Of a stretch of 57,914 nucleotides of DNA, positions 13,831 through 51,570 are shown one piece after another. The stretch is from positions 1 through 57,914 of the forward strand of contig JAITJD010000011.1 in assembly GCA_031279085.1 (NCBI GenBank). The letters run 5' to 3'. Both the position numbers and the translations under genes were made by a program. The notes under the pieces were generated by a model. It was given only the letters and a program-made list of their open reading frames with translations. It was not told where the DNA came from and did no database searches. The stretch's first letter is position 1; each line of letters starts with the position of its first letter. Origin of the DNA: Rickettsiales bacterium (GTDB lineage: Bacteria > Pseudomonadota > Alphaproteobacteria > Rs-D84).

Positions 13831-14129
13831 AATTATTGTTCACAGCAGACGGAAAATGGCAGACGGCAGACAGGCTTAACCCGTCATCCATCACCAATCT
13901 GCCATTTTTTATTATCTGTATTTTACCAATCAAAACTCTCTTTATATTTATTTAACGTGCGCTAACATAGCACAGTCATCTTAAAAATCAAGCGGAAACT
14001 ATTATAAATCTTTAATTTGGACAGCGCAAGCAAAAAATTCACGGTTCGCAAAATATAAATATTTGGACAAACCGAGCGCCAAAAGCGCGATATCGGGACT
14101 TGCTATATTTGCGAGTTGCATTTTTTCGC

Positions 14130-14159
14130 TTGCGCAGGGACGCACTTTTTTTCTACAAT
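14130..14159 (+). promoter_or_regulatory. Candidate sigma70 promoter of the virB8-10 operon
   Basis: -35 TTGCGC (14130-14135), an 18-nt spacer, and -10 TACAAT (14154-14159), about 18 nt upstream of the GGAGAG RBS and ATG at 14177. Confidence 0.4.
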
Positions 14160-14176
14160 TTCATAACAAAGGAGAG

Positions 14177-14869
14177 ATGCCGCCAGTGTCAGATATTATA
14201 GAACCGCCAGTTTTGCTGTCAAGATTGATGACTTTTGTATTCGCCGCCGTGCTGGTCGTGGTGGTTGTGCTGGTAATAACTCTGACAAAAATGTATCCCT
14301 TGGAAAAGACGCAGATTCTTTTTCTGACGACGCAGCCGCTGGCGAACACGGAAATAAGAATTTCCACCTTTTCGCCCGACAATGAAAATATGGAACTTTA
14401 CAAGCAGGCATTCATCAAGGAATACCTCAATGCCAGAAATGAAATAATCCCGAATGTCGTCGTCATGCAGAAAAAATGGGGAAATGACGAAGAAGGCCGG
14501 GTCAATAGATGGAGCACACCGGAAGTCTATTCACAATTCATGCAAACGCAAATGTGGAAGTCTTATATGGATGAAGCGCCGGACTTTGAATTCTACTGTC
14601 CGGTGGAATTCAACAATATTCTGCCATTCCCGGGCAGGGAAGACACATATATTGTGAAATTCAGATACTTTTGCACAAATACTAATGGACAAGCCGACAA
14701 TAAAGATTCTACAATTGTAAAGGACTTTACAATAGTAATCAGGCTGGAGCTGGATAATATTGTAAAATGGACGGATCGCCTGCATAATCCCTTGGGCATT
14801 CGCGTCGCCGAATATTCGGTGGAGTCCGACGGCGGCGACCCGTTGGAATTTAATTGGGCTTTAAATTAG
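14177..14869 (+). CDS. virB8: Type IV secretion system protein VirB8-like
   Basis: The ORF runs 14063-14869. The ATG at 14177 has an AAAGGAGAG RBS. The protein is bitopic, with a short N-terminus and the TM helix 'LMTFVFAAVLVVVVVLVITL'. A periplasmic domain follows with VirB8-like blocks ('MYPLEKTQILFLTT', 'YKQAFIKEYLNARNEI', 'YIVKFRYF'). It sits directly upstream of virB9 and virB10. Confidence 0.7.
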   Translation: MPPVSDIIEPPVLLSRLMTFVFAAVLVVVVVLVITLTKMYPLEKTQILFLTTQPLANTEIRISTFSPDNENMELYKQAFIKEYLNARNEIIPNVVVMQKKWGNDEEGRVNRWSTPEVYSQFMQTQMWKSYMDEAPDFEFYCPVEFNNILPFPGREDTYIVKFRYFCTNTNGQADNKDSTIVKDFTIVIRLELDNIVKWTDRLHNPLGIRVAEYSVESDGGDPLEFNWALN

Positions 14870-14896: not shown

Positions 14897-16372
14897 ATGA
14901 ACAATGTATCAAGATTATTTGACAAAGCCTTTATTTTATGCGCAATATGTTTTATGCTTTGCGCATTCTCCGCAAATGCAGAGGGGATTCAAGAAGCTTG
15001 GGATAATCCAAATGCAAACATGGCGACCGGCAGCATAAAGCCGGGGTACGCCCAGCTGACATGGTCTCAAGGCAGTGTTCTGCCAATCAAGCTGCGCAAC
15101 GGAATGGTCACTATGATAAATCTGCCGGCTGGCGAGCAAATACAAGACGGAACAGTCGGCGAAGAGAATTTGTTTAAATTTGAATTGCAGCAAAACGGCC
15201 AGTCCATGTTCATCTCGCCGACCGGAAGCAACTACGGCGCCGATACGAACATGATTGTAACCGGAAAATCCGGAAACAAGTACATATTTTATCTGCGCAG
15301 CGAGCCCGCGAATTCCAGCGAGATAACATACTCCCAAGTTGATGTGGTGTTGGACGGAAACAACGTCATTCCCAGCGCTTCCGGCAACAGCGCCGCCAGC
15401 ACCGGCATGGGCTCTATTTTCAAAAAGGCGGCGGCCGGAACTTCTGTCATCGGCGTCGACGGGGAAGACTATGGGTGGATAAAGTCAATGAAAATCGATC
15501 CGTCCGAATTCCGCTTTGACTTGGATATTTTCGTTCCGAACCCGGACGATTATGTAATCGCGCCCGAACGCGTGTGGCGCGACAGAATCTTCACATACAT
15601 AGACTTTGGCGACAAGGTCATCGCAATGACCCAGCGGCCCGTTGTGTCCCTGCTGGTCGAAGGGGGCGAATCGCCTGTCGGATTCCGCACGGACGGCGAA
15701 AACGGACGGCTGCTTATTATAGAAGCCGTGGGCGATATGGTTCTGCGTTCCGGGCAGAGAATAGTCTGCATCAAAAAACGCGGCAAGCCTTTCCTGATTG
15801 CCGACACCGCCAGCGTGATGGCGCTGGCCGAAGCAAATGTCGCGCAGAGCATGATGTCCAGCCAGTCTCTGAACAATGTCGCTTATTATGGCCAGCCGGC
15901 AGCGATGGCGGCAAATACTCAGAATTACGCGGGAATGCAGGCTGCTTCATTAACCATGGCGTCCGCTGGCGCGGCTTACGGCTCCTCGGGAATAAACATG
16001 CTTCCGACTGAAAGAAACACTGCCGGCGCATATCTGCCGCAGATCAATATTCCGCTGATCAGCAGCAATCAAGCCGGCGTCGCCGTAGAGTTGAAATCGG
16101 ATACATCTGTAAAGGCTTTGAATGATTATTGGACAAGCCTGCTGGCAAAATTCAGCGGAGAAGACGGCAAAGGATTGTTGACGCCTTATATGAATATGGT
16201 GTTTTTCGCCGTTGACGAGCAAGGCGTCGGCGACCTGGGTTCAGAATCGGCAACCGCGCGGCTGTACCGCCTGAGAATCGGCCCGCTGCAAGACATCGAC
16301 ACCGCGCAGACGTTATGCGACAAGATGTTGAAATTCTCCGGCGCCAGCTGCAATGTCGTAAGAATACAATAA
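14897..16372 (+). CDS. virB9: Type IV secretion system protein VirB9/CagX-like with C-terminal SPOR-like domain
   Basis: 491 aa with the signal peptide 'LCAFSANAEG'. The VirB9 N-domain ('VTMINLPAGEQIQ...MFISPTG...TNMIVTGKSGNKYIFYLRS') and C-domain ('IAPERVWRDRIFTYIDFGD...PVVSLLVEGGESPVGFR...LRSGQRIVCI') are present. After about aa 297 there is a low-complexity linker. Residues 393-491 look like a SPOR fold ('LYRLRIGPLQDIDTAQTLCDKMLKFSGASCNVVRIQ'). Confidence 0.85.
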   Translation: MNNVSRLFDKAFILCAICFMLCAFSANAEGIQEAWDNPNANMATGSIKPGYAQLTWSQGSVLPIKLRNGMVTMINLPAGEQIQDGTVGEENLFKFELQQNGQSMFISPTGSNYGADTNMIVTGKSGNKYIFYLRSEPANSSEITYSQVDVVLDGNNVIPSASGNSAASTGMGSIFKKAAAGTSVIGVDGEDYGWIKSMKIDPSEFRFDLDIFVPNPDDYVIAPERVWRDRIFTYIDFGDKVIAMTQRPVVSLLVEGGESPVGFRTDGENGRLLIIEAVGDMVLRSGQRIVCIKKRGKPFLIADTASVMALAEANVAQSMMSSQSLNNVAYYGQPAAMAANTQNYAGMQAASLTMASAGAAYGSSGINMLPTERNTAGAYLPQINIPLISSNQAGVAVELKSDTSVKALNDYWTSLLAKFSGEDGKGLLTPYMNMVFFAVDEQGVGDLGSESATARLYRLRIGPLQDIDTAQTLCDKMLKFSGASCNVVRIQ

Positions 16373-16385
16373 AAGCATCGGGATA

Positions 16386-18731
16386 ATGAAATCGCTGAAA
16401 GAATCTTTCACTGAATTGAGAAAATCAACGCCAAAGCATGCCCAATGGTTGTTGCTGGCCGCTGCTTTTATCGTCGTTCTTATATTGCTTAGCCTTATTT
16501 TTAAAGGAAAGTCCAAACAAGATGTTGGCGTTTTAAGTGATGCGGCGCCCGTTTTGAATATTGAGCCCCAATCTTTGGATTGGTCTTCAACCACAATCGG
16601 TCAGACAAAAAAACAGGAGTTTGTCATTTCTTCAAACCTTCCTGTGAAAATCAAAGATATTCGCTTGCAAAAAGAAGCGCCGGGATTAAAAAAGCCGCTG
16701 ACAACCTGCAAGACGATATCGCAAATTGACAAGAACGTGCCCTGCACAATAACCATGGAATACTCGCCCGATCAGGTTCAGGATAATACCGCAATATCCC
16801 TGTTTGTCGATTGGATTGACCGGCGCGACATTGCGCGGTCTGATACAATGACTTATACAGAAAAGATTGTAATTTCTATCGGTGCCGTTGAAAAAGTCAA
16901 ATCAGAACCTGTTCCGCCGCCAAAGCCGGAACCCGAACCGGAGCCTGAACCAGATCCGATATCCGACCCCCTGCCGGCGCCGAAGATAAAGCCAGAACCG
17001 GATCCAAAACCTATTCCTGAACCAAAACCTGAACCAAAGCCCGCGCCAGAACAGGATTCGAAATCTTGCTTTGATTTCGCGTTTCCAGGATATAACGCGT
17101 CCGGCCAGCAAATCGGCTGGATACGTCCGCAACATGGCGAGTATGTGTTTCATCCTTTTGCAGACAAGAAATGCGCTTCGCCGACAGGAATATATAATCC
17201 TGACAACGGAATAATCTCAGACATCAATAACCCGTCCAAAAAGATAGGAACAGATGCGGAGCATATCGGATACGGCGCCATAACAAGCGGAACTATCCCG
17301 CAGCTTTCAAACAGCGCCAAGCCACGCGCCATGAACAAGGCGCTGCAACTGGATTCCGAGCAAATAAAAACTCAGACATACACTGGTTTCCACAAGTTGT
17401 TAGACGCGCCAAAACCTGAAAAGCTTTTTACATCTTCCGGTGAAACGGTGGTTTCCAGCAAACCTTATGATCGTTCGTTCCTTTTGCGCCAGTACAAGCC
17501 TATCCCTGCGACAATCGTATCGGAAATCCGCGCGGACCTTCAAACTTTGAATGATAAGAACGGGCTGCCTGTGACGGCAACGGTCGACCGCAATGTATAC
17601 TCCGACAATGGCCGCAATATTATAATCCCGACCGGAACAATGATATTGGGTTATGTTACCGGCGATATTCCCGGCCCATATAAAACAATCGGACGAATGC
17701 ATATTAAATGGTATCAATTTATTCGTCCCGATGGGGTTGAATTCAATTTTGGCACTATGGATAAGCATCCGTTTTCCGCCGATAGCCAAGGGCGCGCCGG
17801 CGTTCCCGGACACGGCAGCAGCGATTATTTAGAGCAATTCGTCATGCCGCTGCTGACGGCGGTCGTGCCGGCGGCGGTAAATATGATCGCGCCAATTGCG
17901 GACAAGTTCGTAAATCAGATTGATTTGGACAATAACACGGTGACGCAAAGCGGACAGGTTCGTTCTTCGGAATTGGCGAAGCAAGAAGTCATCACAACTT
18001 GGAACAAGATTGCAAACAAATTGATGGTCGATATGATGGACAATACTGTGCCGCCTTTTTCCATTGCCGCCGGCACCCGCATTACTGTTTTTTCACCTGT
18101 TGATCTGCTGGTTACATGCGGTGTTCAAGGTGATAATACTAAAGCATGCGCGATCCAGGCATATAGTGAAGAAACGCGCTTTGATATTAGTAGTCGCGAC
18201 GAAGTAACCCAAGCCAAGGAAGCCGAAAATATTGGCAGTATGAGTGGACAAGTGCGTTCGTTCAATTTGGAGCCATACTGCACAAATGATGTAAAAACTG
18301 GCAACAAAACTGTCGACGAGTCAAAAGCAAAAGAAATACAAGAGGCAGGCCTTGATTATCGCACGGTTTTATTCTACTGCCAGTCCCTAAACTATCAGGC
18401 AATCAACACTGCAAAGCAAAATGCAGTGTTTCAGAACCAGCAGCAAACCAGCATGACAACCACAAACGCAAGCGGCGAGAAAGTCCAAATGACCATTGGC
18501 TCTGAAGACTATAATAAAAATGTTCTGGGGCTTGAATACAAAGACGACGGCACTATAAAGAATCCATTCCAAAAAGAAGCCGCGCCTGTTGCGACAGGCA
18601 TTACCTGCGAAGACGGCACGAAGCCGGATCCAAACGGCTGTTGTACTGGTGAAACTTATACCGATATGGGCGAAGATGGCTTTAATTGTTGTCCCGCCGG
18701 CAGCGGCGATTGCTTTCCGCCAATACTATAA
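16386..18731 (+). CDS. virB10: Type IV secretion system protein VirB10/TrbI-like, extended
   Basis: 781 aa. It has an N-terminal TM helix (aa 20-39), a Pro-rich spacer 'PVPPPKPEPEPEPEPDP...PEPKPEPKPAPE' (aa 173-222), and a TrbI core. The core reads 'IPATIVSEIRADL...LPVTATVDRNVYSDNGRNIIIPTGTMILGYV...GRMHIKWYQFIRPDGVEF...DSQGRAGVPGH' (aa about 365-576). There are also extra N-proximal and C-terminal regions. Confidence 0.88.
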   Translation: MKSLKESFTELRKSTPKHAQWLLLAAAFIVVLILLSLIFKGKSKQDVGVLSDAAPVLNIEPQSLDWSSTTIGQTKKQEFVISSNLPVKIKDIRLQKEAPGLKKPLTTCKTISQIDKNVPCTITMEYSPDQVQDNTAISLFVDWIDRRDIARSDTMTYTEKIVISIGAVEKVKSEPVPPPKPEPEPEPEPDPISDPLPAPKIKPEPDPKPIPEPKPEPKPAPEQDSKSCFDFAFPGYNASGQQIGWIRPQHGEYVFHPFADKKCASPTGIYNPDNGIISDINNPSKKIGTDAEHIGYGAITSGTIPQLSNSAKPRAMNKALQLDSEQIKTQTYTGFHKLLDAPKPEKLFTSSGETVVSSKPYDRSFLLRQYKPIPATIVSEIRADLQTLNDKNGLPVTATVDRNVYSDNGRNIIIPTGTMILGYVTGDIPGPYKTIGRMHIKWYQFIRPDGVEFNFGTMDKHPFSADSQGRAGVPGHGSSDYLEQFVMPLLTAVVPAAVNMIAPIADKFVNQIDLDNNTVTQSGQVRSSELAKQEVITTWNKIANKLMVDMMDNTVPPFSIAAGTRITVFSPVDLLVTCGVQGDNTKACAIQAYSEETRFDISSRDEVTQAKEAENIGSMSGQVRSFNLEPYCTNDVKTGNKTVDESKAKEIQEAGLDYRTVLFYCQSLNYQAINTAKQNAVFQNQQQTSMTTTNASGEKVQMTIGSEDYNKNVLGLEYKDDGTIKNPFQKEAAPVATGITCEDGTKPDPNGCCTGETYTDMGEDGFNCCPAGSGDCFPPIL

Positions 18732-30353: not shown

Positions 30354-30405
30354 AAGTCCATGTCCTTATGGACTTTCATCATACAATATTTTAACATTCC
30401 AATCA

Positions 30406-38963: not shown

Positions 38964-38966
38964 TTT

Positions 38967-39539
38967 TTACTCCTTGAATGAGGCGACTTTTATTTTGTCG
39001 CCCTCATCTAGTTTTGAAAGAACAACCAGGTCGCCGTCAGCCAGCCCTTTGGACACAAGCGCGAATTCGGAATCCTGGGCTTTGACCTCAACGGCTCGTT
39101 TGCGCGCGACTCCGCCGTCCGATACCATCAGATGGCCGTCGGTTATCGCATAAACGGGCACAAAGAAGCCCGACATGGCATATTCCGCATAACCCAAGCC
39201 ATCGGCGGCGCCTTTGGTTTTTATCAGGTGCATTCCTGAATCCAAGTCTATTTCCGGCGAAACATAAGTTATTTTCCCTTCGCCGATTTTCTGTCCCGCG
39301 CTAAATTTGTGAACGCGCGCGCCGGATACAAACGCGCGGTTTGCCTTTATAAACAAAGGCTCTTTCAACACATCTGTTTTTCTGCGCACGTTCATCAGCA
39401 TCGACGGCTTGCCCTGTTGAGCCGAAACGCGGGTTGCGTTAAAGATTTGGCGGCTGTTTTCAGAGCCTATGGACGCGAACCTGAACGCAATCCAGCCGAC
39501 AACTGCAACAGCTATCAATATATAAGCTATTTTTTTCAT
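38967..39539 (-). CDS. Truncated-architecture RND periplasmic adaptor (MFP)
   Basis: The ATG at 39539 ('MKKIAYILIAVAVV') has a GAGGAA RBS. The ORF track start at 39557 is TTG. At about 190 aa it has only beta-barrel/lipoyl-like segments ('GKITYVSPEIDLDSG', 'VPVYAITDGHLMV', 'GLADGDLVV'), which is too short for an alpha-hairpin. It sits between tolC and the RND pump gene. Confidence 0.65.
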   Translation of the reverse strand: MKKIAYILIAVAVVGWIAFRFASIGSENSRQIFNATRVSAQQGKPSMLMNVRRKTDVLKEPLFIKANRAFVSGARVHKFSAGQKIGEGKITYVSPEIDLDSGMHLIKTKGAADGLGYAEYAMSGFFVPVYAITDGHLMVSDGGVARKRAVEVKAQDSEFALVSKGLADGDLVVLSKLDEGDKIKVASFKE

Positions 39540-39546
39540 TTGTTCC

Positions 39547-40872: not shown

Positions 40873-40874
40873 TG

Positions 40875-41339
40875 TTAATTCTCCATATTCTTTAAAATTT
40901 TATTTATATTTCTCAGCGACTGCGTAAGCTTTGCCTCGTCTTCTCGACTGACATCGCCGAATAAAGCCTCTATATATTCGCGAAAGCTTTCCATTGCCTT
41001 GCCGGCAAATTCCGCGCCTTTGGGCGTTATCGAATACCAAGTATTGCGGCGGTCTTCTTTATCTGTGTCGCGGGAAACCAATCCGTCTTTTTCCAGCTTG
41101 CGAAACATTGCGCATAAACTGGCCGCCGACACAGCTTCGCGACAAGCGATATCTTTTAATTTGGCCCGGCCGCAGATATGCAGGCGAACCAGAACCGCCA
41201 ATTGCTGGCGCGGATATGCATGAGCGCTGGCAAGATTAAATTTTATTTTGTCCGCCAGCCTGCTCAGGATTAAAATATTTTCTTCCATCAGGCGAACGAA
41301 TTCCTTGCGGGGCATTATTAATTCCTTTTTAAATTCCAA
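40875..41339 (-). CDS. MarR-family transcriptional regulator
   Basis: 154 aa with the winged-HTH 'LVRLHICGRAKLKDIACREAVSAASLCAMFRKLEKDGLVSRDTDKEDRRN'. It is the first gene of the efflux operon. The start may be the ATG 24 nt downstream. Confidence 0.88.
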   Translation of the reverse strand: MEFKKELIMPRKEFVRLMEENILILSRLADKIKFNLASAHAYPRQQLAVLVRLHICGRAKLKDIACREAVSAASLCAMFRKLEKDGLVSRDTDKEDRRNTWYSITPKGAEFAGKAMESFREYIEALFGDVSREDEAKLTQSLRNINKILKNMEN

Positions 41340-44204: not shown

Positions 44205-44230
44205 CCGCCGTTCCGGCGGCTTATTTTTTT
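44205..44230 (+). terminator. Rho-independent terminator of uvrD (shared convergent gap)
   Basis: ccgccg (44205-44210), loop ttc, cggcgg (44214-44219), followed by CTTATTTTTTT. The T-tract overlaps the 3' end of the minus-strand gene 44221-45588. Confidence 0.6.
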
Positions 44231-45588
44231 CTGATGATTTTCCACCAATTTTTTGCGGTGCCGGTCGTTTTGCCCCAGATTTTCTTAATGTCGCCGCCAA
44301 CCTGTTTACCAAAGCTTTCATCTATGCTGCCGCCGAGCTTTTTTGCAATCTCGCCGGCCTTGGTTGCAAGATAGGCGACCAGGCAGCCCACAATCAGGGT
44401 TATCATAAAGCCGTCGTTTTTCAATGTCGGCACTTGCGCCGCCAAGTTTGAATCCACAACGCCCGACAGTATCGCCGCGCACAGCGCGATGACTATTGAC
44501 AGCGACACGAAATAAATCGCCGACTGAATAAATTTCTGAATTTGCGCCGAAAGAGACTGCGTCTTGAATAATTCAAAAAACTGATTGAATATTTTTCCCG
44601 CGTATCCGTCATAGCTTGTCTTGCCACCGCCGCCGCCGAATGCATCAATCGGCGCGCCGAACATTCCGTCCGACTGATTATCCTGGCCGCCAAAAACTTG
44701 CGCGATCGCGGTAAAGGGCAGCATAATGATAACCAAAAACAAGTCCGCAATCACACCCAGCGCCGTCAATGCGAACTTCCACATATTGTAAATGAATATC
44801 ACCACAAAGACCGCGCCGGCCACGAATGTCAGCGCGCTGGTGCCGATGCCGGCCAGCATCCATTTCCAACCGGCGGCGACCGCAGTGGAAAAGAATCCCG
44901 ACAGGCGCGTCGTAAGGCACAACAAATCTGCGGTTTGCGCGGAATTTACAAACGCGTCATTGGTATGCGCGACCGCGGTGTATTTGTGTATGGCCGCGCA
45001 GGTGTCCGGCAGAATCGCGCCGCTGGCGGCGGACACAGAATTCAATATCAAATCGGACAGTTCTGTTCCGATTGACAGAATCGGCCCCATAATCCACATA
45101 AATAATTGCGCGGGCCCCTGCTCTATTACAAGAATCCATACTGTTGCAAGCACCAGCTTTTTGACGATAGCCTCCAATTGTTCTCTGACTTTTTTCTTGC
45201 CGCGAATCATTTGGTATGATTCCATCATTATCCAGAACGCCAGCATGACGATTATGAATACGCTGATAAATCTGACCAGCGATTTTTCCAAGACTTGACC
45301 GACATAGGACAACGCGCCGATAAACGCGCGGCCGACGCGCGCCTCTATCGGAACATAGTCTTTCACCAAAACATTTTGCTGAAATTCTGATTGAAATGAT
45401 TTTATGTCTTCGGTCAGCCCGTTCACAAACAAAGTCTGATTCTGTTCGGTCATCCATGTTCCAAAGTTGCCGATGTCGGCGTTTGTCGCGGCGAACGAGC
45501 CGCAGCAAAAACCGGCAAAAAGCGCGCAGCAGGCGGCTGTCATAGCCGCTTTTCTTATTTTTAATAAAAATTTATTAATTGCATTCAT
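44221..45588 (-). CDS. Polytopic membrane protein, paralog P1 (VirB6/TrbL-like architecture)
   Basis: 455 aa with the signal peptide 'CCGSFAATNA' and a periplasmic loop carrying a Cys pair. The TM block contains 'WKFALTALGVIADLFLVIIMLPFTAIAQVF'. The basic tail is 'KKIWGKTTGTAKNWWKIIRKK'. It is the last gene of a 4-gene operon. Confidence 0.6.
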   Translation of the reverse strand: MNAINKFLLKIRKAAMTAACCALFAGFCCGSFAATNADIGNFGTWMTEQNQTLFVNGLTEDIKSFQSEFQQNVLVKDYVPIEARVGRAFIGALSYVGQVLEKSLVRFISVFIIVMLAFWIMMESYQMIRGKKKVREQLEAIVKKLVLATVWILVIEQGPAQLFMWIMGPILSIGTELSDLILNSVSAASGAILPDTCAAIHKYTAVAHTNDAFVNSAQTADLLCLTTRLSGFFSTAVAAGWKWMLAGIGTSALTFVAGAVFVVIFIYNMWKFALTALGVIADLFLVIIMLPFTAIAQVFGGQDNQSDGMFGAPIDAFGGGGGKTSYDGYAGKIFNQFFELFKTQSLSAQIQKFIQSAIYFVSLSIVIALCAAILSGVVDSNLAAQVPTLKNDGFMITLIVGCLVAYLATKAGEIAKKLGGSIDESFGKQVGGDIKKIWGKTTGTAKNWWKIIRKK

Positions 45589-45597
45589 GCTCGCCCG

Positions 45598-47037
45598 CTA
45601 CTTTTCTCCCATTCCTTTCGTAGCCATTTCGCCAATTTTCTTTGGTATGTTCCATACTGTCTGTCCAAGTCCTTTGAGCCATCCGCCAAAGTCAAAGGAT
45701 TCTTCTTCGTCTTTGCCCAGCATTTCGTCAATCTTTGGCGACACCGCATAGTAATACACCAGGAATATGCCCAGCATCAGCATCAAGAATTCCCATCCGT
45801 TCTTCATAAAGTCAAATGCGCCGGGATATTTGCGCTCCACTTCCGCGCGGCTGGCGGTAAAGCAGTTTTGGAATATTGTCTTATCCATCTCGCCGGCGGC
45901 GGATGCGACTTTTTCGCATTTGGAAAATACCGCCATTACGGACAAGGTTTTCGCATCCTGAGTATTGGCGGTTTCGTACATCAATGGAGGCAGGATTGAA
46001 TTGTATCCGTCCTGCGGCCCGGGGAAATATTCGTCGGCGGCAAATGACACGGTCGCGTAGATTATCAGTATTTTCAATGTTATCGCGACAATGCGGACTG
46101 CGGACTTTACCAGCATGTTGATAGAATTCGTCACAATGCCCGACACCAGCGGCCAGACTGTTTCAAAAGCCCCCGCAGCAATAATCAGCGGCAGAAATAT
46201 TATCAGGAACACAAGCTTGAAAATAACAGACAATACTTGGAAAAACAGATTGAACCCGATAATCAGAAACATTATGACCAGCGCAAGGCCTGAAATCCAA
46301 GTAAAGGTGCCGCCGCCCATGTCCATCCATGAATAATTCATCAATGCAAAGCCGCCGGCCGCGCCGGCCAGCATGACCGCGTTCAGATTTCCCATAACGC
46401 ACATGAATGGCTTTAACACCGGATTCAAAATATCATTGTTTTTTTCGGAAGTCCCGCATTGGGCGGAATTGGCGATTCCCGTCGCGGCCATGGATAATTC
46501 GGCCCCGACAAACATGACAGGCGCGATTGTGATATTAGTCACCGCCCGCAGAGCGCTGGTGCCGCCGAACCCAAGCGCGCCCAGCAGCGCGCCGGCCAGC
46601 ATTATGCGCGCGGCCTGCTTCCATACTTTGTCAAACCAGGACCCGAATTCCAGCTTCCTTTCGCCCGCGTCCAGATTTGCATTTTTCTTGGACACTTCGT
46701 AAAAATGCTGCGCGGCGCTTATGAACAAAAAAACTCCGAATCCGATTGCCATCAAAAGCCAGATATTTTTAACCATTGCGACCCAAAAGCTTTCCGCAGC
46801 GGTTCCGATGACGGCAAACAGCTTTTCAATATAGACGCACAGAAAGCATCCGTTCGCAGTGGCTATATCGCCGCCTTGGACGCCGATGGCGGATAAAAAC
46901 TTGTCCAGGCTTGTATATGTTATGCTGTCGCCGCTAATTGACGAAGACAAATACCAAATGCCGATACCCAGGGCTATTCCGCCCATAATCCATTTTATGG
47001 CAATCATAATCAGTTTGGCTTTTAACATAGGCATCAA
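45598..47037 (-). CDS. Polytopic membrane protein, paralog P2 (VirB6/TrbL-like architecture)
   Basis: 479 aa with an N-terminal TM helix and the CxxC 'NGCFLCVYIEKLF'. The Cys-pair loop is 'SAQCGT...PFMCVMG'. The TM core contains 'LVFLIIFLPLIIAAGAF'. The tail is 'GWLKGLGQTVWNIPKKIGE'. Confidence 0.6.
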   Translation of the reverse strand: MMPMLKAKLIMIAIKWIMGGIALGIGIWYLSSSISGDSITYTSLDKFLSAIGVQGGDIATANGCFLCVYIEKLFAVIGTAAESFWVAMVKNIWLLMAIGFGVFLFISAAQHFYEVSKKNANLDAGERKLEFGSWFDKVWKQAARIMLAGALLGALGFGGTSALRAVTNITIAPVMFVGAELSMAATGIANSAQCGTSEKNNDILNPVLKPFMCVMGNLNAVMLAGAAGGFALMNYSWMDMGGGTFTWISGLALVIMFLIIGFNLFFQVLSVIFKLVFLIIFLPLIIAAGAFETVWPLVSGIVTNSINMLVKSAVRIVAITLKILIIYATVSFAADEYFPGPQDGYNSILPPLMYETANTQDAKTLSVMAVFSKCEKVASAAGEMDKTIFQNCFTASRAEVERKYPGAFDFMKNGWEFLMLMLGIFLVYYYAVSPKIDEMLGKDEEESFDFGGWLKGLGQTVWNIPKKIGEMATKGMGEK

Positions 47038-47094
47038 GCTAGCTGGTATTCAGCGGCAAACATCAAGCATCAAATGCCTGCCGCTTTATGTTCG

Positions 47095-48336
47095 CTAAGT
47101 TTTTTTCTCCTCCCCTTTTTTATCACCTTCTTTTTTCTCCCCTTCTTTTTTTTCTTCTTCTTTTTTCTCTCCGCCGGATATTATTGTTTTTCCGGCGTTT
47201 TTGACGGTTGTTAGCACAATCCCAGTCAGTTTCAGCGCATTTTCGCCCATCTCTTCGCTCAATTTGTTATTTTCCTGAACATCAAAGGCTGACATTACCA
47301 TTTTTGTAACCTCGCCGATTTGGGAAGCCAGAAACTCCGCTACATATATCAAGACAAAGCAGCTGCCGATTGTCAAGGCTTCAAGCTTATCGTCGCTTAA
47401 CGCCACATCGAAAATCTCACCGCTGGTTATCTTGTTCATAAGTTCAGCCGTATCAGCGTCAGGGTCTGAGAAGAACTTTGCAATGATACCAATTATGACG
47501 GTATATGTCAAAACCGCCGATGCCAGCGATACGATCGCGTTGACGACACTCTTGAACTGACCCGCGCCCAAGTCGCCGCCCAGCTTTTTCACCCAGTCGG
47601 GCGCTTCGGAATTCTTGAATGCGAACATTGCCAATGACAATGGGAAAAAGAACGCGAAGAAAGTCATCGCCACTATCACGTCCACAAAATAAAAGCAGAA
47701 CTTGATGAATATCTTGAAAAATCCGTAAAGCAGGTAAAGCCCGACAAAGAACATCAATATGTGCTTTATCAGCGCGCCGATTCCCAGCAGCGCGCTTAAT
47801 GAGAAAGCTTCGTCCATAATCGCGATCCCCAGCTCCATGTATGATTGGAACTGCGTGATGGTAGTCTTCATCAGCAGTATGATTTTATCCCGCAGCGCTG
47901 GTCTGTAAAATCCGTCGTCGCTCATTGCCTCCGGCTGATACGGGATTTTTTCCTCGACCGTATCGCTGTCTATTTTTATCATGCTTTGCGTATAGGTCAA
48001 TGTTATGTCCGCGACGGGCTCGAATGTAATGGTCGTTATAAATCTGGGCAACGCCACCCCCATCCCCAGCAGCGCGAACACAAATAAGGAATTTATCAGC
48101 ACCGGCTTTATATATTTCTGATACATCGGGTCTTTGGCGCCGGTGCTGATATTTTTCCAAACCGCATACAGAATATAGAACGCCAGAATCAGGCAGAATA
48201 TCAGAATGCAGAACAGCGAAAATTGGCGGTACAAAGCCGCCGCCGCCGCGGATATCACTTGGAACAGTCGGTCAAATACCGGACAGCCCCAGCACTTCAT
48301 CGAAGAATCAATCAAAGAATTCATCCATCCGTTCAT
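47095..48336 (-). CDS. Polytopic membrane protein, paralog P3 (VirB6/TrbL-like architecture), K/E-rich tail
   Basis: 413 aa with the CxxC 'KCWGCPVFDRLF' at aa 15-18 and the TM core 'MTFFAFFFPLSLAMFAF'. The C-terminus 'EKKEEEKKEGEKKEGDKKGEEKKT' is encoded by an A-rich tract that includes an A8 run. Its start overlaps the P4 stop (ATGA). Confidence 0.6.
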   Translation of the reverse strand: MNGWMNSLIDSSMKCWGCPVFDRLFQVISAAAAALYRQFSLFCILIFCLILAFYILYAVWKNISTGAKDPMYQKYIKPVLINSLFVFALLGMGVALPRFITTITFEPVADITLTYTQSMIKIDSDTVEEKIPYQPEAMSDDGFYRPALRDKIILLMKTTITQFQSYMELGIAIMDEAFSLSALLGIGALIKHILMFFVGLYLLYGFFKIFIKFCFYFVDVIVAMTFFAFFFPLSLAMFAFKNSEAPDWVKKLGGDLGAGQFKSVVNAIVSLASAVLTYTVIIGIIAKFFSDPDADTAELMNKITSGEIFDVALSDDKLEALTIGSCFVLIYVAEFLASQIGEVTKMVMSAFDVQENNKLSEEMGENALKLTGIVLTTVKNAGKTIISGGEKKEEEKKEGEKKEGDKKGEEKKT

Positions 48337-49604
48337 TTTTTCTTAAACCATCCCGTAGCGGTTTTGATTTTTTTGCCAAAATCTTTGGCGCCCTTCCAAG
48401 TTGTTTTAATATCGCCAGTCGCTTTCTTGTGCAGGGCGTCCATATTTTCGCCCGTGTATTTTTTCAGCTGTTCGCGCGTTAGATCGAATATTCTGGTCAT
48501 CAGATAAAATGTCAGGATTGTCGAAAGCCACAGGATTGAATGCTGGCCGAATCCCATGGCGCTGTTTGCGACCTGCGGAACATTGCTGGCGGCAGAGCCG
48601 CCCGCCGCCACGACAAAGACCGAGCTGTTCCATTGAAACAGCGCCTTGATGATGGCGATGTTTATCGCCAGTATGAACGCGCATGCGATCATCGTTATCA
48701 CCAGTTTTTGCAGCGCCTTGATTATTCCGTCAAAAGCGGGCCATAAATCCAGCCACTTGTCGGGATTTTTCGGCTTGGCGACCCACATCAGGACTTGAAA
48801 AGGATATAATACCAGCGCCATTCCGAAATTGAATATCCCCTGGATAATCAATAATGCCATGAAAAAGTTGCTGGATACGAAAGACACGACCAGCAGTATA
48901 CCGGTCAACAGATTCAGAAAATCTTCGCCGCCGCGCGGAATTAAAGTCATCAAACCAAGCAGGCCTTTGTTTACGAACTCAAAGCCGCGCTTGATAATCT
49001 GATTGTTCGCATGCGACAAGGTTGCCACCGGCTGCACTAGAAAATTACAACCTTCGGCAGAAATCCAGCCTTTTTCGATAATCCCCGTCGGACATTCAGG
49101 ATTTTTCGGCCTGCCCGAAGGCATGTTGATGCTTTTGATTATGCTTTCGGTATACAACGCGCCGACTTGCAGGAACGGGTCGACAATCCATTTTGTTACA
49201 TAAACGGGCTTTACCTGTAAAAGAATCGTCGCGGCGATTATTGCGCGAATGGCCGGTTTCAGCATATTCTGGGCGATGTCCATTCCTTTGGCTTTGCCCT
49301 CCCACATTTCGCCGCCGCCCGAAAATCCGAAAAAATTCAGCCAGTTTTGCGGAAAATACATCTTGACCAAGTACAAGCCCATCGACACGCCCAAAAATCC
49401 CCAAATAAGTATGTAAATGATTCCATCGCCTCCGCCCACAAAAAAATCATAAACGCCCGTCGCCACCCCCATCAAAGCGTCCAGCGCTATCGGAACGAAC
49501 GGCGCCAGGTTAAGGCTATCCACAATTCCCCATTCGGCAAACGCCGGCGTGGCCAGCGCAAAAGAACAAAGAGCAAAAAGAAAAGAACAGAAAAACTTAT
49601 TCAT
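48333..49604 (-). CDS. Polytopic membrane protein, paralog P4 (VirB6/TrbL-like architecture)
   Basis: 423 aa with the signal peptide 'ALATPAFAEW' and the Cys-pair loop 'PECPTG...AEGCNF'. The TM core contains 'GMALVLYPFQVLMWVA'. The tail is 'TTWKGAKDFGKKIKTATGWFKKK'. It is the first gene of the minus-strand operon. Confidence 0.6.
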   Translation of the reverse strand: MNKFFCSFLFALCSFALATPAFAEWGIVDSLNLAPFVPIALDALMGVATGVYDFFVGGGDGIIYILIWGFLGVSMGLYLVKMYFPQNWLNFFGFSGGGEMWEGKAKGMDIAQNMLKPAIRAIIAATILLQVKPVYVTKWIVDPFLQVGALYTESIIKSINMPSGRPKNPECPTGIIEKGWISAEGCNFLVQPVATLSHANNQIIKRGFEFVNKGLLGLMTLIPRGGEDFLNLLTGILLVVSFVSSNFFMALLIIQGIFNFGMALVLYPFQVLMWVAKPKNPDKWLDLWPAFDGIIKALQKLVITMIACAFILAINIAIIKALFQWNSSVFVVAAGGSAASNVPQVANSAMGFGQHSILWLSTILTFYLMTRIFDLTREQLKKYTGENMDALHKKATGDIKTTWKGAKDFGKKIKTATGWFKKK

Positions 49605-49613
49605 CGCTCTATT

Positions 49614-49651
49614 ATTATATCATAAAAAGAGTCGTGATTTTATGATATAAT
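49614..49651. promoter_or_regulatory. Perfect 14-bp inverted repeat forming back-to-back extended -10 promoter elements
   Basis: attatatcataaaa (49614-49627), a 10-nt spacer, then ttttatgatataat (49638-49651). Each arm reads TGATATAAT (TGnTATAAT) pointing outward, toward P4 on the minus strand and P5 on the plus strand. Confidence 0.55.
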
Positions 49652-49702
49652 AGCAAAAACAAACCTCGTTATGCCCGCGCAAGTCGGTCAGAAGGACAAA
49701 AT

Positions 49703-50992
49703 GTGAACCGATTGAAAAAATTTTGGATAGTCTTTCTTTCCTTTCTGCCTTTTGCGGCCGGAGCGGTTGCCCCGCTGGTTGTCGGCGGAATCGCGGGCCT
49801 GGGCGTTATAGCCGGCTTTTCAATATACCGTTCCGTCGCGCCGGTCAATATGGCCGACGCGCTGTCGTTTTTTTCCAGCTGCTGGTCCTGCCAGATGTTT
49901 TCCGATATCATGGCCACTATGTCGGGCTTGCTGCCGCGCGTGTATAGCGCCATAGGACAGGCCACGATTCCAATATGCATAGGTCTGACCGCCGTATGGT
50001 TTGCATGGCGCCTGCTGTCCGGATATCTGGGCATAAACAAAATTGAAGAGCCATGGGCAATAGCGGGCGGATTCGGAACGCACATAATAAAACTGGGGTT
50101 TATCGTGGCATTGCTGGCTTTTCCCTTGCCGCGATTATTGACCAATGTCGTCATAGAGCCGGTCTTTAATGTCGGTCTGTCGCTTAACCGAGCGGTGGCT
50201 TCAGATAAAACTTTTGCAGAGTGCGTGGTTGCAACCGCAATCGACGAGACGGTTTCAATCGATAAGGCGGCCGCATCAGATGGAGCATTTTCGCCAAAAT
50301 TGCGGTATAACCTGACTTGCGAGCTGGCCGGAATCCATCAGATGACGGGGCTTGGAATGACCGTTGGCTGGACAATGCTGAACATGGCTTTTAATTCCAA
50401 GTACATGCACAAGCTTATATGGAATATTCCGATATTTCCGAATGTTCCGATATTCTTTGCGGGGCTGCTGATATTGGTTTTGTTCTTCTTCGCATTGCTG
50501 CCGGTGCCGATCTACTTATTAGAGGTATTCATAACCCTGTCCATGGATTTGATAATGCTGCCGCTGATGTTGCTGGGCTGGCTTTTCAAAGACTGGAAAA
50601 TTGCGGATTGGGGCGGAAAAACCGTCAAGGGAATCATCGATGATGTCGTGAAGAATACGGTCGGAATCGCGCTGATCGGGGTTTTCATATCCTTTTCCGT
50701 GATATTTCTTAATTCCGTGTTCGAAAAATGGCCGGGCGCATCATATTTGAAAGCGGCGCTGGAAAGCAACAAATCGGAAATCTTGATGGACGGATTGCTT
50801 ATGAACAACGACAGTTTGATAACCATCGTCTTGATGGGACTGTTCATCGCGATGTTTATGAGCATGATACCCGCGCTGGTAAAGACTTTGTTCGCGATAG
50901 AAATTCCGCAAAGCTTTTACGAAAATACAAAAAAGAACCTGAATATCGTATGGGGGAATATGAAAAAATGGTACGAATCTATAAAAAAATAA
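49703..50992 (+). CDS. Polytopic membrane protein, paralog P5 (VirB6/TrbL-like architecture)
   Basis: 429 aa with a GTG start 6 nt after a GAAGGA RBS. It has the CxxC 'SSCWSCQMFSDIM' and the Cys-pair loop 'FAECVV...NLTCEL'. The TM core contains 'LIMLPLMLLGWLF'. The tail is 'NIVWGNMKKWYESIKK'. It is divergent from P4. Confidence 0.6.
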   Translation: MNRLKKFWIVFLSFLPFAAGAVAPLVVGGIAGLGVIAGFSIYRSVAPVNMADALSFFSSCWSCQMFSDIMATMSGLLPRVYSAIGQATIPICIGLTAVWFAWRLLSGYLGINKIEEPWAIAGGFGTHIIKLGFIVALLAFPLPRLLTNVVIEPVFNVGLSLNRAVASDKTFAECVVATAIDETVSIDKAAASDGAFSPKLRYNLTCELAGIHQMTGLGMTVGWTMLNMAFNSKYMHKLIWNIPIFPNVPIFFAGLLILVLFFFALLPVPIYLLEVFITLSMDLIMLPLMLLGWLFKDWKIADWGGKTVKGIIDDVVKNTVGIALIGVFISFSVIFLNSVFEKWPGASYLKAALESNKSEILMDGLLMNNDSLITIVLMGLFIAMFMSMIPALVKTLFAIEIPQSFYENTKKNLNIVWGNMKKWYESIKK

Positions 50993-51060: not shown

Positions 51061-51570
51061 ATGAAAGCAAATCCTATTCTTTACTGGCCGCGAAAAGAAG
51101 GCGACAACTCTGAATATCAACTGGCGCGCAAGGTCATAAGCGCCAAATCAGGCGTTATGCCCCAAGTCGTCGCGGAAGATGTCGACATTGCCGAATTGAT
51201 TTTAAAAAATCCAGACAATGTCCTGTATTATCCGGTTTTTTGCGAATCCTCCGGCTGGTGGGGCGAACTGTTGAACGGCGATGCGGTCGTCACCAATAAA
51301 CTGATAATTTCCCCTGAATGTCAGCTGATGGTCATTGAAAACAAAAATAAAGCGAATCAAAAGGGACAGAATCACCTGCTGGCGGCGGAAATATACCCGG
51401 CCAGCGGATTTTTCAAGAAAATGAATTCGGGCGTCGCCATCGTGTCTGATATGCTGGCGACAGACGCTGGAACAATATTGGCGCTGTTTTCCGGAAAAAA
51501 TCAAAATCAGTTTGTAAATATCCTGGAATCCACAGGCAATTTTTATTTGGGCTGTATAGGAAGGTATTGA
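51061..51570 (+). CDS. Hypothetical soluble protein (169 aa)
   Basis: A clean ATG ORF with no TM helix or signal peptide and no recognisable motif. It lies 68 nt downstream of P5 on the same strand. Confidence 0.5.
   Translation: MKANPILYWPRKEGDNSEYQLARKVISAKSGVMPQVVAEDVDIAELILKNPDNVLYYPVFCESSGWWGELLNGDAVVTNKLIISPECQLMVIENKNKANQKGQNHLLAAEIYPASGFFKKMNSGVAIVSDMLATDAGTILALFSGKNQNQFVNILESTGNFYLGCIGRY

What the first reader, a model, noticed from the sequence alone, without database searches (positions are those of the whole stretch)
44221..50992. Array of five paralogous polytopic membrane proteins (four tandem, one divergent): VirB6/TrbL-like, with no ATPase, pilin or VirB3/4 partner nearby
Five ORFs encode proteins of 413-479 aa with one shared layout.
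- Four are on the minus strand: 44221-45588, 45598-47037, 47095-48336 and 48333-49604. Their gaps of 9, 57 and -4 nt indicate one operon.
- The fifth, 49703-50992, is divergent on the plus strand.

Shared features seen in the translations:
1. An N-terminal signal or anchor segment.
2. A loop of about 100-150 aa that carries a spaced Cys pair in four of the five. These are P1 'DTCAAIH...LLCLTT', P2 'SAQCGT...PFMCVMG', P4 'PECPTG...AEGCNF' and P5 'FAECVV...NLTCEL'.
3. A dense TM block with a common hydrophobic-Pro core. The cores are 'LFLVIIMLPFTAIAQVF', 'LVFLIIFLPLIIAAGAF', 'MTFFAFFFPLSLAMFAF', 'GMALVLYPFQVLMWVA' and 'LIMLPLMLLGWLF'.
4. A short Lys/Trp-rich tail: 'KKIWGKTTGTAKNWWKIIRKK', 'TTWKGAKDFGKKIKTATGWFKKK', 'NIVWGNMKKWYESIKK' or 'GWLKGLGQTVWNIPKKIGE'. 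P3 has a K/E tail instead.

This is the general architecture of TrbL/VirB6 inner-membrane T4SS subunits. Tandem proliferation of VirB6 paralogs is a hallmark of the Rickettsiales vir-homolog (rvh) T4SS.

This array differs from that picture in three ways. The proteins are much smaller than rvh VirB6 proteins. The array is not preceded by virB3-virB4 and is flanked by uvrD and rpmE. It also has its own palindromic control region.

It is therefore either a miniaturised, dispersed rvh-type apparatus or a distinct, undescribed membrane-protein system.
Basis: partly seen in the sequence, partly recalled or inferred. Interest (0 to 1): 0.82.

Follow-up and report, generated by a model that had tools for sequence, protein, structure and literature searches.

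The report
Five divergent VirB6 secretion-channel paralogs
Five neighbouring membrane-protein genes in a tiny-genome gut bacterium (Candidatus Enterousia) are unrecognisably diverged copies of VirB6, the inner-membrane base of a type IV secretion machine, which points to a contact-dependent secretion apparatus in a lineage thought to live off other cells.

Summary
Five ORFs of 413-479 aa sit at the stated coordinates: four tandem on the minus strand and one divergent. They are distant paralogs under purifying selection (dN/dS 0.08-0.21). All 74 related species loci with enough flanking sequence keep them in identical order.

Pfam, NCBIfam and PHROGs give no TrbL/VirB6 hit. Three independent lines still place them in the VirB6/TrbL superfamily:
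- Their profile reaches 984 cluster representatives, and TrbL is the only recurrent Pfam family among those (8 of 103, two above the gathering score, on the same TM block).
- A direct profile-profile comparison with canonical VirB6 gives P = 4.4e-5 and aligns the invariant Pro.
- AlphaFold models of P1 and P5 each retrieve R388 TrwI/VirB6 chains as top PDB hits (probability 0.99-1.00).

virB8-virB9-virB10 lie 25 kb away in the window. A VirD4-like coupling protein occurs near the array in three relatives. VirB4, VirB11, VirB2 and VirB3 were not found and could not be searched genome-wide.

The host is Candidatus Enterousia (order Rs-D84), not Rickettsiales proper. The rvh-type virB3-virB4-virB6 synteny is absent. 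This is a new variant of a known kind. Five copies matching the pentameric VirB6 stalk base is an untested lead.

The parts
44221..45588 (-). P1: VirB6-like paralog, 455 aa. Last gene of the four-gene operon. It is the only paralog that lacks the post-TM Trp.
   Evidence: ORF. AF2 model has pLDDT 81.6 and pTM 0.72. Its top four Foldseek PDB hits are TrwI/VirB6 chains, probability 0.75-1.00. Orthologs are 48-69% identical and all unnamed. Cys197/Cys224 are conserved.
45598..47037 (-). P2: VirB6-like paralog, 479 aa, with CxxC (C64/C67) and a loop Cys pair (C194/C213).
   Evidence: ORF. hhalign to the P1 family gives 88% over 296 columns. Cys conservation. Retained in all complete loci.
47095..48336 (-). 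P3: VirB6-like paralog, 413 aa, with a K/E-rich tail and CxxC (C15/C18) but no loop Cys pair.
   Evidence: ORF. P3-P5 give E about 1e-13 over the full length. hhalign gives 95%.
48333..49604 (-). P4: VirB6-like paralog, 423 aa, first gene of the operon, with a cleavable-looking signal peptide (…TPAFA/EWG).
   Evidence: ORF. hhalign to the P1 family gives 93% over 284 columns. C171/C186 are conserved.
49605..49702 (.). Divergent promoter region. It holds a perfect 15-nt inverted repeat (49613-49627 / 49638-49652), and each arm reads TGATATAAT (extended -10) toward its gene.
   Evidence: Sequence and inverted repeat. The minus-strand TGnTAnAAT element is present in 86 of 87 loci, and a plus-strand element is conserved in the alignment. 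Start codons lie about 8-10 nt downstream in most relatives.
49703..50992 (+). P5: VirB6-like paralog, 429 aa, divergent, GTG start. It is the most conserved of the five.
   Evidence: ORF. More than 900 orthologs at about 68-77% identity. AF2 model has pLDDT 63.7. Its top five Foldseek PDB hits are all TrwI/VirB6 chains with probability 1.00.
51061..51570 (+). P6: conserved 169-aa soluble ORF immediately downstream of P5. Whether it belongs to the system is uncertain.
   Evidence: Syntenic in every relative examined. 70-73% identity. dN/dS about 0.11. No Pfam, NCBIfam, PHROGs or PDB match.
14063..14869 (+). virB8 homolog.
   Evidence: Pfam VirB8, E = 9.8e-11, 42.3 bits, above the gathering score. 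Syntenic in relatives.
14897..16372 (+). virB9 (CagX/TrbG) homolog.
   Evidence: Pfam CagX, E = 3.4e-22. NCBIfam VirB9 scores 52.8 bits, far below the 217.7 cutoff, so it is highly diverged.
16386..18731 (+). virB10 (TrbI) homolog, 781 aa, with a Pro-rich linker and a Cys-rich C-terminal tail.
   Evidence: Pfam TrbI, E = 2.4e-17. NCBIfam T4SS_VirB10 scores 64 bits against a 220 cutoff. 14 metagenomic relatives at 43-60% identity share the same synteny.
44205..44219 (.). GC-rich hairpin between the convergent uvrD and P1 genes, terminator-like.
   Evidence: Consensus scan reports a 6-bp all-GC stem followed by a T-run. This is a pattern match only.

Best explanation
The five genes encode highly diverged members of the VirB6/TrbL family. 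VirB6 is the polytopic inner-membrane protein that forms the base of the T4SS stalk and channel.

They belong to a chromosomal, dispersed type IV secretion system of Candidatus Enterousia (order Rs-D84), an uncultured gut alphaproteobacterium with a genome under 1 Mb. The same 58-kb window also encodes VirB8, VirB9 and VirB10.

Likely working (inferred):
- The four-gene operon and the divergent fifth gene are co-expressed from back-to-back extended -10 promoters.
- The products insert into the inner membrane, with a disulfide-stabilised periplasmic loop.
- They assemble into the stalk base under the VirB8 arches and VirB9/VirB10 core, probably as a mixed oligomer of paralogs.
- A VirD4-type coupling ATPase feeds substrates through the machine into a partner or host cell, or a pilus-like contact structure is built on it.

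Shown: paralogy, purifying selection, strict retention of all five, VirB6 fold and remote homology, and presence of virB8/9/10. Inferred: co-assembly, substrate, and the existence of VirB4/VirB11 elsewhere in the genome.
For: - Pfam TrbL detects the controls (VirB6 at 3e-15, TrwI at 5e-50). It is also the only recurrent Pfam family among the family's distant members: 8 of 103.
- P0362 (28.6 bits) and P0373 (26.5 bits) exceed the 25.9-bit gathering score. Both matches fall on TrbL positions about 76-190, the same TM block matched by the window-derived profile at E about 1e-17 to 1e-18 against 1.8 billion proteins.
- A family profile of 135 sequences against a canonical VirB6 profile of 122 PF04610 proteins gives hhalign score 42.1 and P=4.4e-5. 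The invariant 'LPF' Pro aligns on TrwI P181 'GPLF'. Reversed-profile controls score 18.7 and 19.5.
- The AF2 P1 model (pLDDT 81.6) has TrwI/VirB6 chains as PDB ranks 1-4. The AF2 P5 model has them as ranks 1-5, at probability 1.00 and TM-score to target 0.44-0.52. The next hits have probability 0.44 or less.
- Four of the five paralogs keep a Trp 11-16 residues after the conserved Pro, as VirB6 and TrwI do (sequence). That Trp is functionally important in A. tumefaciens VirB6 (PMC7648143).
- virB8, virB9 and virB10 lie at 14063-18731. They are just as diverged from the reference models.
- T4CP-like proteins of about 750 aa lie 2-7 kb from P5 in L083, L055 and L074. They have an N-terminal TM segment, the Walker A-like motif APPGTGKT and the Walker B motif IDEM.
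- dN/dS is 0.08-0.21. All five paralogs occur in identical order in 74 of 74 complete loci.
- The host lineage is predicted to depend on other cells (PMC12306168).
Against: - No direct Pfam, NCBIfam or PHROGs hit for any of the five, even at E<=1.
- The family HMM does not reach TrwI in PDB sequences.
- Foldseek E-values are modest (0.013-0.4), with RMSD of 7.5-14.5 A.
- The hhalign probability is only 69% and the alignment covers 96 columns.
- No VirB4, VirB11, VirB2, VirB3, VirB5 or VirB7 was found in the window or in about 2 Mb of related loci. Without VirB4 a T4SS could not work.
- The array is not adjacent to any other T4SS gene.
- P1 lacks the conserved Trp.
Confidence: 0.8

Rival explanations
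1. The paralogs are alternative VirB6 subunits that form separate homopentamers, or are swapped between conditions, hosts or substrates. This is how Rickettsiales VirB6 copies are usually described. They would not be obligate partners in one hetero-oligomer.
For: The literature calls rvh VirB6 copies 'presumably functionally redundant' and their role 'a mystery'. Anaplasmataceae and Wolbachia have four copies, not five. L094 shows only two members on a 7-kb contig.
Against: Redundant copies are usually lost in genomes under 1 Mb. Here all five are kept in every complete locus of 74 species, with dN/dS of 0.21 or lower. The paralogs are only about 20% identical, and each is individually conserved. 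Independent arrays in L092 and L095 also hold exactly five.
Confidence: 0.3
2. The apparatus is a ComB-like DNA-uptake T4SS. It would bring DNA into the periplasm for ComEC to import, feeding a cell that cannot make nucleotides.
For: comEC is in the window at 30283-32337. VirB10 also hits NCBIfam ComB10 at E = 2.2e-15, nearly as well as VirB10. The lineage lacks nucleotide biosynthesis (PMC12306168).
Against: The ComB10 hit is sub-threshold and weaker than the VirB10 hit. A VirD4-type coupling protein, typical of export systems and absent from ComB systems, occurs in relatives. No described ComB system has multicopy VirB6 (my knowledge, not tested here).
Confidence: 0.1
3. This is a distinct, non-T4SS membrane-protein system, such as a transporter or envelope-maintenance complex. 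Its long hydrophobic helices would only superficially resemble VirB6.
For: No curated profile recognises the proteins. P3 has a sub-threshold EI24/CysZ hit (22.5 bits against a cutoff of 32). The array is never adjacent to other T4SS genes in about 90 loci. Arrays in L092, L093 and L095 also lack T4SS neighbours.
Against: Two independent models pick TrwI/VirB6 specifically out of about 350,000 PDB chains, while generic helical membrane proteins score probability below 0.3. The link through TrbL-positive intermediates, and the aligned invariant Pro, are sequence-based and independent of fold.
Confidence: 0.07
4. The ORFs are decaying remnants of a lost T4SS, or chance hydrophobic ORFs.
For: No ATPase genes were found in the window.
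Against: dN/dS is 0.08-0.21, reading frames are intact, and synteny is identical in 74 species. Invariant motif residues and Cys pairs are conserved.
Confidence: 0.01

Closest known systems
Canonical VirB6/TrbL (A. tumefaciens VirB6; R388 TrwI, PDB 7o3v/8rt9/8rtd)
   Same: - All-helical polytopic fold with several long hydrophobic helices.
- Best and specific structural match for both models.
- Conserved Pro-x(11-18)-Trp core after the TM block, aligned by hhalign.
- Encoded in a genome that also has virB8/9/10.
   Different: - 413-479 aa rather than 295-342 aa.
- Not detectable by Pfam PF04610.
- Five very divergent copies instead of one.
- Extra N-terminal region with CxxC and a disulfide-bearing loop.
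- Not in a virB operon, with no adjacent virB5, virB7 or virB4.
Rickettsiales vir homolog (rvh) T4SS VirB6 arrays (RvhB6a-e; Anaplasma VirB6-1 to -4)
   Same: - Tandem multicopy VirB6: 5 in Rickettsiaceae and 4 in Anaplasmataceae (PMC7648143).
- T4SS genes dispersed in several chromosomal islets.
- Reduced-genome alphaproteobacterium that depends on other cells.
- Paralog similarity is restricted to the central TM block.
   Different: - The array is not preceded by virB3-virB4, a synteny described as common to the order.
- The proteins are far smaller than the 600 to over 4000 aa of the rvh copies.
- One copy is divergently transcribed.
- The organism belongs to GTDB order Rs-D84, not Rickettsiales.
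- Duplication of VirB4/B8/B9 and absence of VirB5 could not be tested.
Unannotated VirB6-like arrays in other alphaproteobacterial MAGs (L092, L093, L095)
   Same: - Same sequence family, with family-HMM E-values of 1e-14 to 1e-65.
- Five tandem copies in L092 and L095.
- No adjacent VirB4.
- Chromosomal housekeeping flanks.
   Different: - Larger proteins (405-980 aa) with N-terminal extensions.
- A small 2-TM ORF of 67-91 aa accompanies the array.
- One member is fused to an M23 peptidase and RHS repeats.
- Some reach Pfam TrbL directly.

Membership tests
VirB6/TrbL (Pfam PF04610) | Match to the curated TrbL profile at or above the gathering score (25.9 bits) | tested here: not met
   None of the five hits at E<=1. 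Controls VirB6 (57 bits) and TrwI (170.7 bits) pass.
VirB6/TrbL (Pfam PF04610) | Homology to bona fide members, shown through intermediates or profile-profile comparison | tested here: met
   The window-derived profile reaches P0362 and P0373 at E about 2e-18 and 2e-17. Both pass the TrbL gathering score on the same region. TrbL is the only recurrent family, in 8 of 103 members. hhalign against a canonical profile gives P=4.4e-5 and probability 69%; reversed controls give E about 0.1.
VirB6/TrbL (Pfam PF04610) | VirB6 fold: bundle of long, mostly hydrophobic alpha-helices as in TrwI | tested here: met
   For the P1 and P5 AF2 models, the top 4 and top 5 PDB hits are TrwI chains, with probability 0.75-1.00 and TM-score to target 0.39-0.52. 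The TrwI structure was released in 2022; by my recollection (not checked here) that post-dates AF2's training structures, which would rule out memorisation.
VirB6/TrbL (Pfam PF04610) | Conserved Trp in the loop following the central TM helices | tested here: met
   Present in P2, P3, P4 and P5 and near-invariant in the alignment (W312 column). Absent in P1 and its orthologs.
VirB6/TrbL (Pfam PF04610) | Encoded together with other T4SS core genes | tested here: inconclusive
   virB8/9/10 are in the same window but 25 kb away. The array is never adjacent to them in about 90 loci. A T4CP lies 2-7 kb away in 3 relatives only.
Rickettsiales rvh T4SS | Multicopy (4-5) tandem VirB6 | tested here: met
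   Five copies, conserved in 74 of 74 complete loci.
Rickettsiales rvh T4SS | virB3-virB4-virB6(n) operon synteny | tested here: not met
   The array is flanked by uvrD and by P6/rpmE. No VirB3 or VirB4 is present in the window or within 10 kb in any relative. The feature is described in PMC7648143.
Rickettsiales rvh T4SS | Duplicated VirB4, VirB8 and VirB9, and no VirB5 (hallmarks listed in PMC11077975) | not testable with these tools
   Only one virB8 and one virB9 are seen in the 58-kb window. No whole genome of the clade could be scanned.
Rickettsiales rvh T4SS | Large VirB6 paralogs with long extensions (about 600 to over 1000 aa) | tested here: not met
   413-479 aa. More distant family members in L092, L093 and L095 are 405-980 aa.
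Rickettsiales rvh T4SS | Host organism within order Rickettsiales | tested here: not met
   Relatives are titled Candidatus Enterousia, which GTDB places in order Rs-D84 (PMC12306168). Some NCBI records are loosely titled 'Rickettsiales bacterium'. No phylogeny was made here.

The most novel reading that the evidence does not exclude
The five paralogs are the five non-identical protomers of one hetero-pentameric VirB6 stalk base, with one gene per position of the C5 ring seen in R388. That would explain three things: exactly five copies are kept without exception in a genome under 1 Mb, independent arrays in other alphaproteobacterial MAGs also hold five, and Rickettsiaceae carry five RvhB6. 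It would make the long-unexplained VirB6 proliferation of rvh-type systems a case of subunit differentiation within a ring.
Probability: 0.3. Interest if true: 0.75.

Novelty: new variant of a known kind. Interest (0 to 1): 0.55.

Why it matters
- It assigns a function class to a large protein family. The family has 984 clusters at 50% identity, and every member looked up that carries a source name is called 'hypothetical protein' in public databases.
- It shows that Candidatus Enterousia / Rs-D84 carries a type IV secretion apparatus with an rvh-like VirB6 expansion. These are abundant gut bacteria with genomes under 1 Mb, proposed to live off other cells by unknown means. The genomic description of the lineage that was searched does not mention secretion.
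- This gives a concrete candidate machine for the postulated partner dependence.
- It extends multicopy VirB6, regarded as a Rickettsiales signature, to another order.
- It offers a compact five-gene system in which to test whether VirB6 paralogs build a hetero-pentameric stalk.

Tried and rejected
- Direct Pfam, NCBIfam and PHROGs scans of the five proteins found nothing.
- phmmer or a family HMM against PDB sequences found no TrwI.
- hhalign of family profiles against single VirB6 or TrwI sequences, or of thin six-sequence profiles against the canonical profile, was not significant.
- tblastn with pTi and R388 T4SS proteins was too insensitive. It missed even the window's own VirB8/9/10.
- The 770-aa ORF heading the L092 array was tested as VirB4. 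It is another family member, not an ATPase.
- The 426-aa 'VirB11' hits in L053 and L059 are RarA/MgsA.
- The 844-aa and 323-aa ORFs next to the L074 T4CP are MutS and TruB.
- Extra ORFs beside virB8-10 in metagenomic relatives are not T4SS genes, and L099 looks chimeric.
- The T4CP candidate gave no PDB sequence hit at E<=0.01. Its assignment rests on phmmer against TraG/TrwB plus motifs.
- A column-shuffle control for hhalign failed to parse and is not used.
- The 199-aa ORF at 19136-19735 looks spurious. The overlapping 115-aa ORF is the conserved one.
- The palindrome as a dedicated operator is rejected as the primary reading, because only the two -10-like boxes are conserved.


Full report
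**Observation**

- Hydropathy shows an N-terminal hydrophobic segment, a less hydrophobic stretch of 100-150 residues, and a dense TM block in each.
- Pairwise similarity is low. Only P3-P5 (E about 1e-13) and P1-P4 (1e-5 to 1e-7) are clear by BLASTP or phmmer.
- With orthologs from five related contigs, profile-profile comparison links all five. P1-P4 give 93%, P1-P2 88%, P1-P5 89% and P3-P5 95%, over 175-322 collinear columns.
- A 30-sequence alignment shows residues invariant across all families: a loop Pro, two Gly, a Phe and a Pro in the TM block. A Trp just after the block is near-invariant.
P2, P3 and P5 also share a conserved N-terminal CxxC.

**Reality of the genes**

- P5 has more than 900 database relatives at about 68-77% identity, and P1 has 420 at 48-69%. 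All are unnamed, and none has a meaningful Pfam domain.
- The arrangement uvrD | P1 P2 P3 P4 (minus) | P5 (plus) | 169-aa ORF | rpmE | suhB | PBP1 recurs in every relative fetched.
- Of 80 species-representative genomes, 74 carry P1- P2- P3- P4- P5+ with no extra or missing copy. The other six are truncated by contig ends.
- dN/dS against the closest relative is 0.08-0.21 for all five.
- In relatives the four minus-strand genes abut or overlap by 1-4 nt, as expected for one operon.

**Organism**

The related genomes are titled Candidatus Enterousia or uncultured gut Alphaproteobacteria. Closed chromosomes are 0.72-0.96 Mb.

The literature places Enterousia in GTDB order Rs-D84. It describes genomes under 1 Mb that lack most biosynthesis, upper glycolysis and respiration. 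[quoted passage not shown] The word 'secretion' does not occur in that paper (PMC12306168).

**Identity: what failed**

- Pfam, NCBIfam and PHROGs give no TrbL/VirB6 match for any of the five, even at E<=1. Pfam TrbL does detect A. tumefaciens VirB6 (3e-15) and R388 TrwI (5e-50).
- Sequence or HMM searches of PDB chains do not reach TrwI.
- Profiles against single reference sequences are not significant.

**Identity: what succeeded**

1. *Transitive homology.* An exhaustive HMM search of 1.84 billion cluster representatives, using a profile of the five window proteins plus P5 orthologs, found 984 representatives at E<=1e-3.
   - When 103 of the listed members were scanned against Pfam, TrbL was the only family hit by more than one member: 8 members, best E = 1.5e-6.
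   - Individually, P0362 (28.6 bits) and P0373 (26.5 bits) exceed the 25.9-bit gathering score. P0349, P0345 and P0323 fall just below it.
   - Each match is on TrbL positions about 76-190. That is the same TM block these proteins align to my profile with, at E about 1e-17 to 1e-18.
2. *Direct profile-profile test.* A 135-sequence family profile was compared with a canonical profile built from TrwI, VirB6 and 120 PF04610 proteins.
   - hhalign gives score 42.1, P=4.4e-5 and probability 69% over 96 columns.
   - The family's invariant 'LPF' Pro is placed on TrwI P181 ('GPLF'), and the alignment runs through the last helices.
   - Reversed-profile controls score 18.7 and 19.5.
3. *Fold.* The AlphaFold2 model of P1 has pLDDT 81.6 and pTM 0.72. 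The model of P5 has pLDDT 63.7.
   - Each was searched against about 350,000 PDB chains.
   - For P1, ranks 1-4 are TrwI/VirB6 chains of the R388 T4SS. For P5, ranks 1-5 are.
   - Foldseek probability is 0.75-1.00 and TM-score to target is 0.39-0.52. Unrelated helical proteins follow at probability 0.44 or less, mostly below 0.25.

Four of the five paralogs keep a Trp 11-16 residues after the conserved Pro, as VirB6 and TrwI do at +18. That Trp matters for VirB6 function in A. tumefaciens (PMC7648143). I conclude that these are very diverged VirB6-family proteins.

**Context**

- The window also encodes VirB8 (14063-14869), VirB9/CagX (14897-16372) and VirB10/TrbI (16386-18731).
- These three are also far below NCBIfam cutoffs, so the whole apparatus is fast-evolving. 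That explains the Pfam failure for the VirB6 copies.
- Their locus (nusG | virB8-9-10 | a conserved 115-aa ORF | yidC) is syntenic in 14 metagenomic relatives.
- No ORF in the window can be VirB4, VirB11 or VirD4. Every ORF of at least 600 aa is otherwise assigned.
- A phmmer screen used pTi and R388 T4SS proteins against 13,216 ORFs from the window and about 2 Mb of related loci. It found, besides the VirB10 controls, only a protein of about 750 aa in three Enterousia species (L083, L055, L074).
  - It has an N-terminal membrane anchor and a Walker A-like APPGTGKT.
  - Its 'IDEM' aligns on the TraG Walker B, and its QDLHQ aligns on TraG QSLGQ.
  - It is a VirD4/TraG-type coupling protein, and it lies 2-7 kb from P5 in those genomes.
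- Other candidates were housekeeping genes: RarA, MutS and TruB.
- Whether VirB4, VirB11, VirB2 and VirB3 exist elsewhere in the genome could not be tested with the tools available.

**The 'palindromic control region'**

- The 98-nt P4|P5 spacer holds a perfect 15-nt inverted repeat with a 10-nt spacer. Read toward its gene, each arm contains TGATATAAT, a perfect extended -10 box.
- Across 87 loci the minus-strand box is present in 86. The alignment shows a second conserved box on the plus strand. The full palindrome occurs in a minority of loci.
- In most relatives the start codons lie only about 8-10 nt downstream of the boxes. This suggests leaderless or near-leaderless divergent transcripts.
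- The window's P5 has an extra leader of about 45 nt with an AAGGA Shine-Dalgarno sequence and a GTG start.
- The symmetry is therefore most simply two back-to-back promoters. A regulator site is not excluded.

**Comparison with known systems**

- Multicopy tandem VirB6 is a hallmark of the Rickettsiales rvh T4SS. The other hallmarks are duplicated VirB4/B8/B9 and no VirB5 (PMC11077975).
- There the paralogs (4 in Anaplasmataceae, 5 in Rickettsiaceae) follow virB3-virB4 in one operon, a synteny described as common to the order (PMC7648143). Their function is called 'a mystery'.
- The Enterousia array shares the copy number, the dispersal of T4SS genes and the reduced-genome, partner-dependent setting.
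- It fails the virB3-virB4 synteny, its proteins are much smaller, and the organism is in another order.
- The same family forms arrays in other alphaproteobacterial MAGs: five tandem members in L092 and in L095, and five or six in L093. These also lack an adjacent VirB4 and are accompanied by a small 2-TM ORF.
- Every family member looked up that carries a source name is called 'hypothetical protein'.

**Mechanistic lead**

In the R388 structure, the stalk base is a pentamer of VirB6, each subunit made of seven long, mostly hydrophobic helices (PMC9259494). Five individually conserved, never-lost paralogs at about 20% mutual identity, in a genome under 1 Mb, recur as five in independent arrays and in Rickettsiaceae. 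That fits a hetero-pentamer with one gene per ring position. The four-copy Anaplasmataceae show that five is not universal. I found no paper in the searchable library that links VirB6 paralogs to a (hetero)pentamer.

**Verdict**

The VirB6/TrbL-like reading is supported by remote homology and by fold, though not by direct profile hits. The system is best described as a new, compact variant of the multicopy-VirB6 (rvh-like) T4SS theme, in a lineage where no T4SS was mentioned in the genomic description searched. Completeness of the machine is the main open point.

Noticed in passing
L083:12960-15221(-), L055:4002-6287(-), L074:17352-19607(-): VirD4/TraG-like type IV coupling protein of about 750 aa. 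It has an N-terminal TM segment, the Walker A-like motif APPGTGKT and the Walker B motif IDEM. In three Enterousia species it sits just after suhB, 2-7 kb from P5. It is absent from the corresponding place in the window.
   Followed up: partly
window 51061-51570 (+): Conserved 169-aa soluble ORF immediately downstream of P5 in every relative (70-73% identity, dN/dS about 0.11). It has no match in Pfam, NCBIfam, PHROGs or PDB sequences. It may be a cytoplasmic partner of the array or an unrelated gene.
   Followed up: partly
window 18999-19346 (+): A 115-aa ORF directly downstream of virB10 is conserved at about 55% identity in metagenomic relatives and has no family match. The overlapping 199-aa ORF at 19136-19735 looks spurious.
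   Followed up: partly
window 49605-49702 and the equivalent spacer in 87 loci: The divergent extended -10 boxes sit only about 8-10 nt from the start codons in most relatives, which implies leaderless or near-leaderless mRNAs for P4 and P5. In the window, P5 has gained a leader of about 45 nt with a Shine-Dalgarno sequence and a GTG start.
   Followed up: partly
L001:2-1783, L004:1-1854, L007:3-1835, L008:3-1811 and about 46 other loci (+ strand, upstream of dnaQ): A large protein (over 590 aa visible, running off the locus) that is very Cys-rich, with EGF-like C-x-C-x-x-G repeats at its C-terminus. It occurs in 50 relatives. The window lacks it and has a marR-tolC-acrA-acrB efflux cluster (35928-41339) there instead. 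It could be a surface adhesin or a secreted substrate.
   Followed up: no
L093:10001-12943 (P0373, 980 aa): A distant family member fuses the VirB6-like domain with an N-terminal M23 peptidase (a peptidoglycan hydrolase) and C-terminal RHS repeats. This hints at cell-wall breaching or an antibacterial role for some of these systems.
   Followed up: no
L092:4967-5227, L095:7780-8055, L093:4783-4986: Small 67-91 aa ORFs, each with two TM helices and a charged tail, sit at the head of or inside the distant VirB6-like arrays. They are VirB3-like in size and topology but have no Pfam hit. The window has no equivalent next to its array.
   Followed up: partly
window 16386-18731 (VirB10): VirB10 is unusually long at 781 aa. 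It has a (PEPK)n Pro-rich linker at about residues 171-224 and a Cys-rich C-terminal tail (…CEDGTKPDPNGCCTGETYTDMGEDGFNCCPAGSGDCFPPIL).
   Followed up: no
L006:4439-4816 and 15284-15652: In a termite-gut relative, a 125-aa 23S_rRNA_IVP/bAvd-type four-helix-bundle gene is inserted between the P3 and P4 orthologs, and a second copy lies downstream. It is the only interruption of the array seen.
   Followed up: no
window 30283-32337 (+): A ComEC competence channel gene lies in the same window as the T4SS genes. This is relevant to the DNA-uptake rival hypothesis.
   Followed up: no
L099:1-7100: This contig joins a truncated Enterousia-type virB10 to chemotaxis (MCP) and flagellar (FliD) genes, which the clade is reported to lack. 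It is probably an assembly chimera.
   Followed up: no
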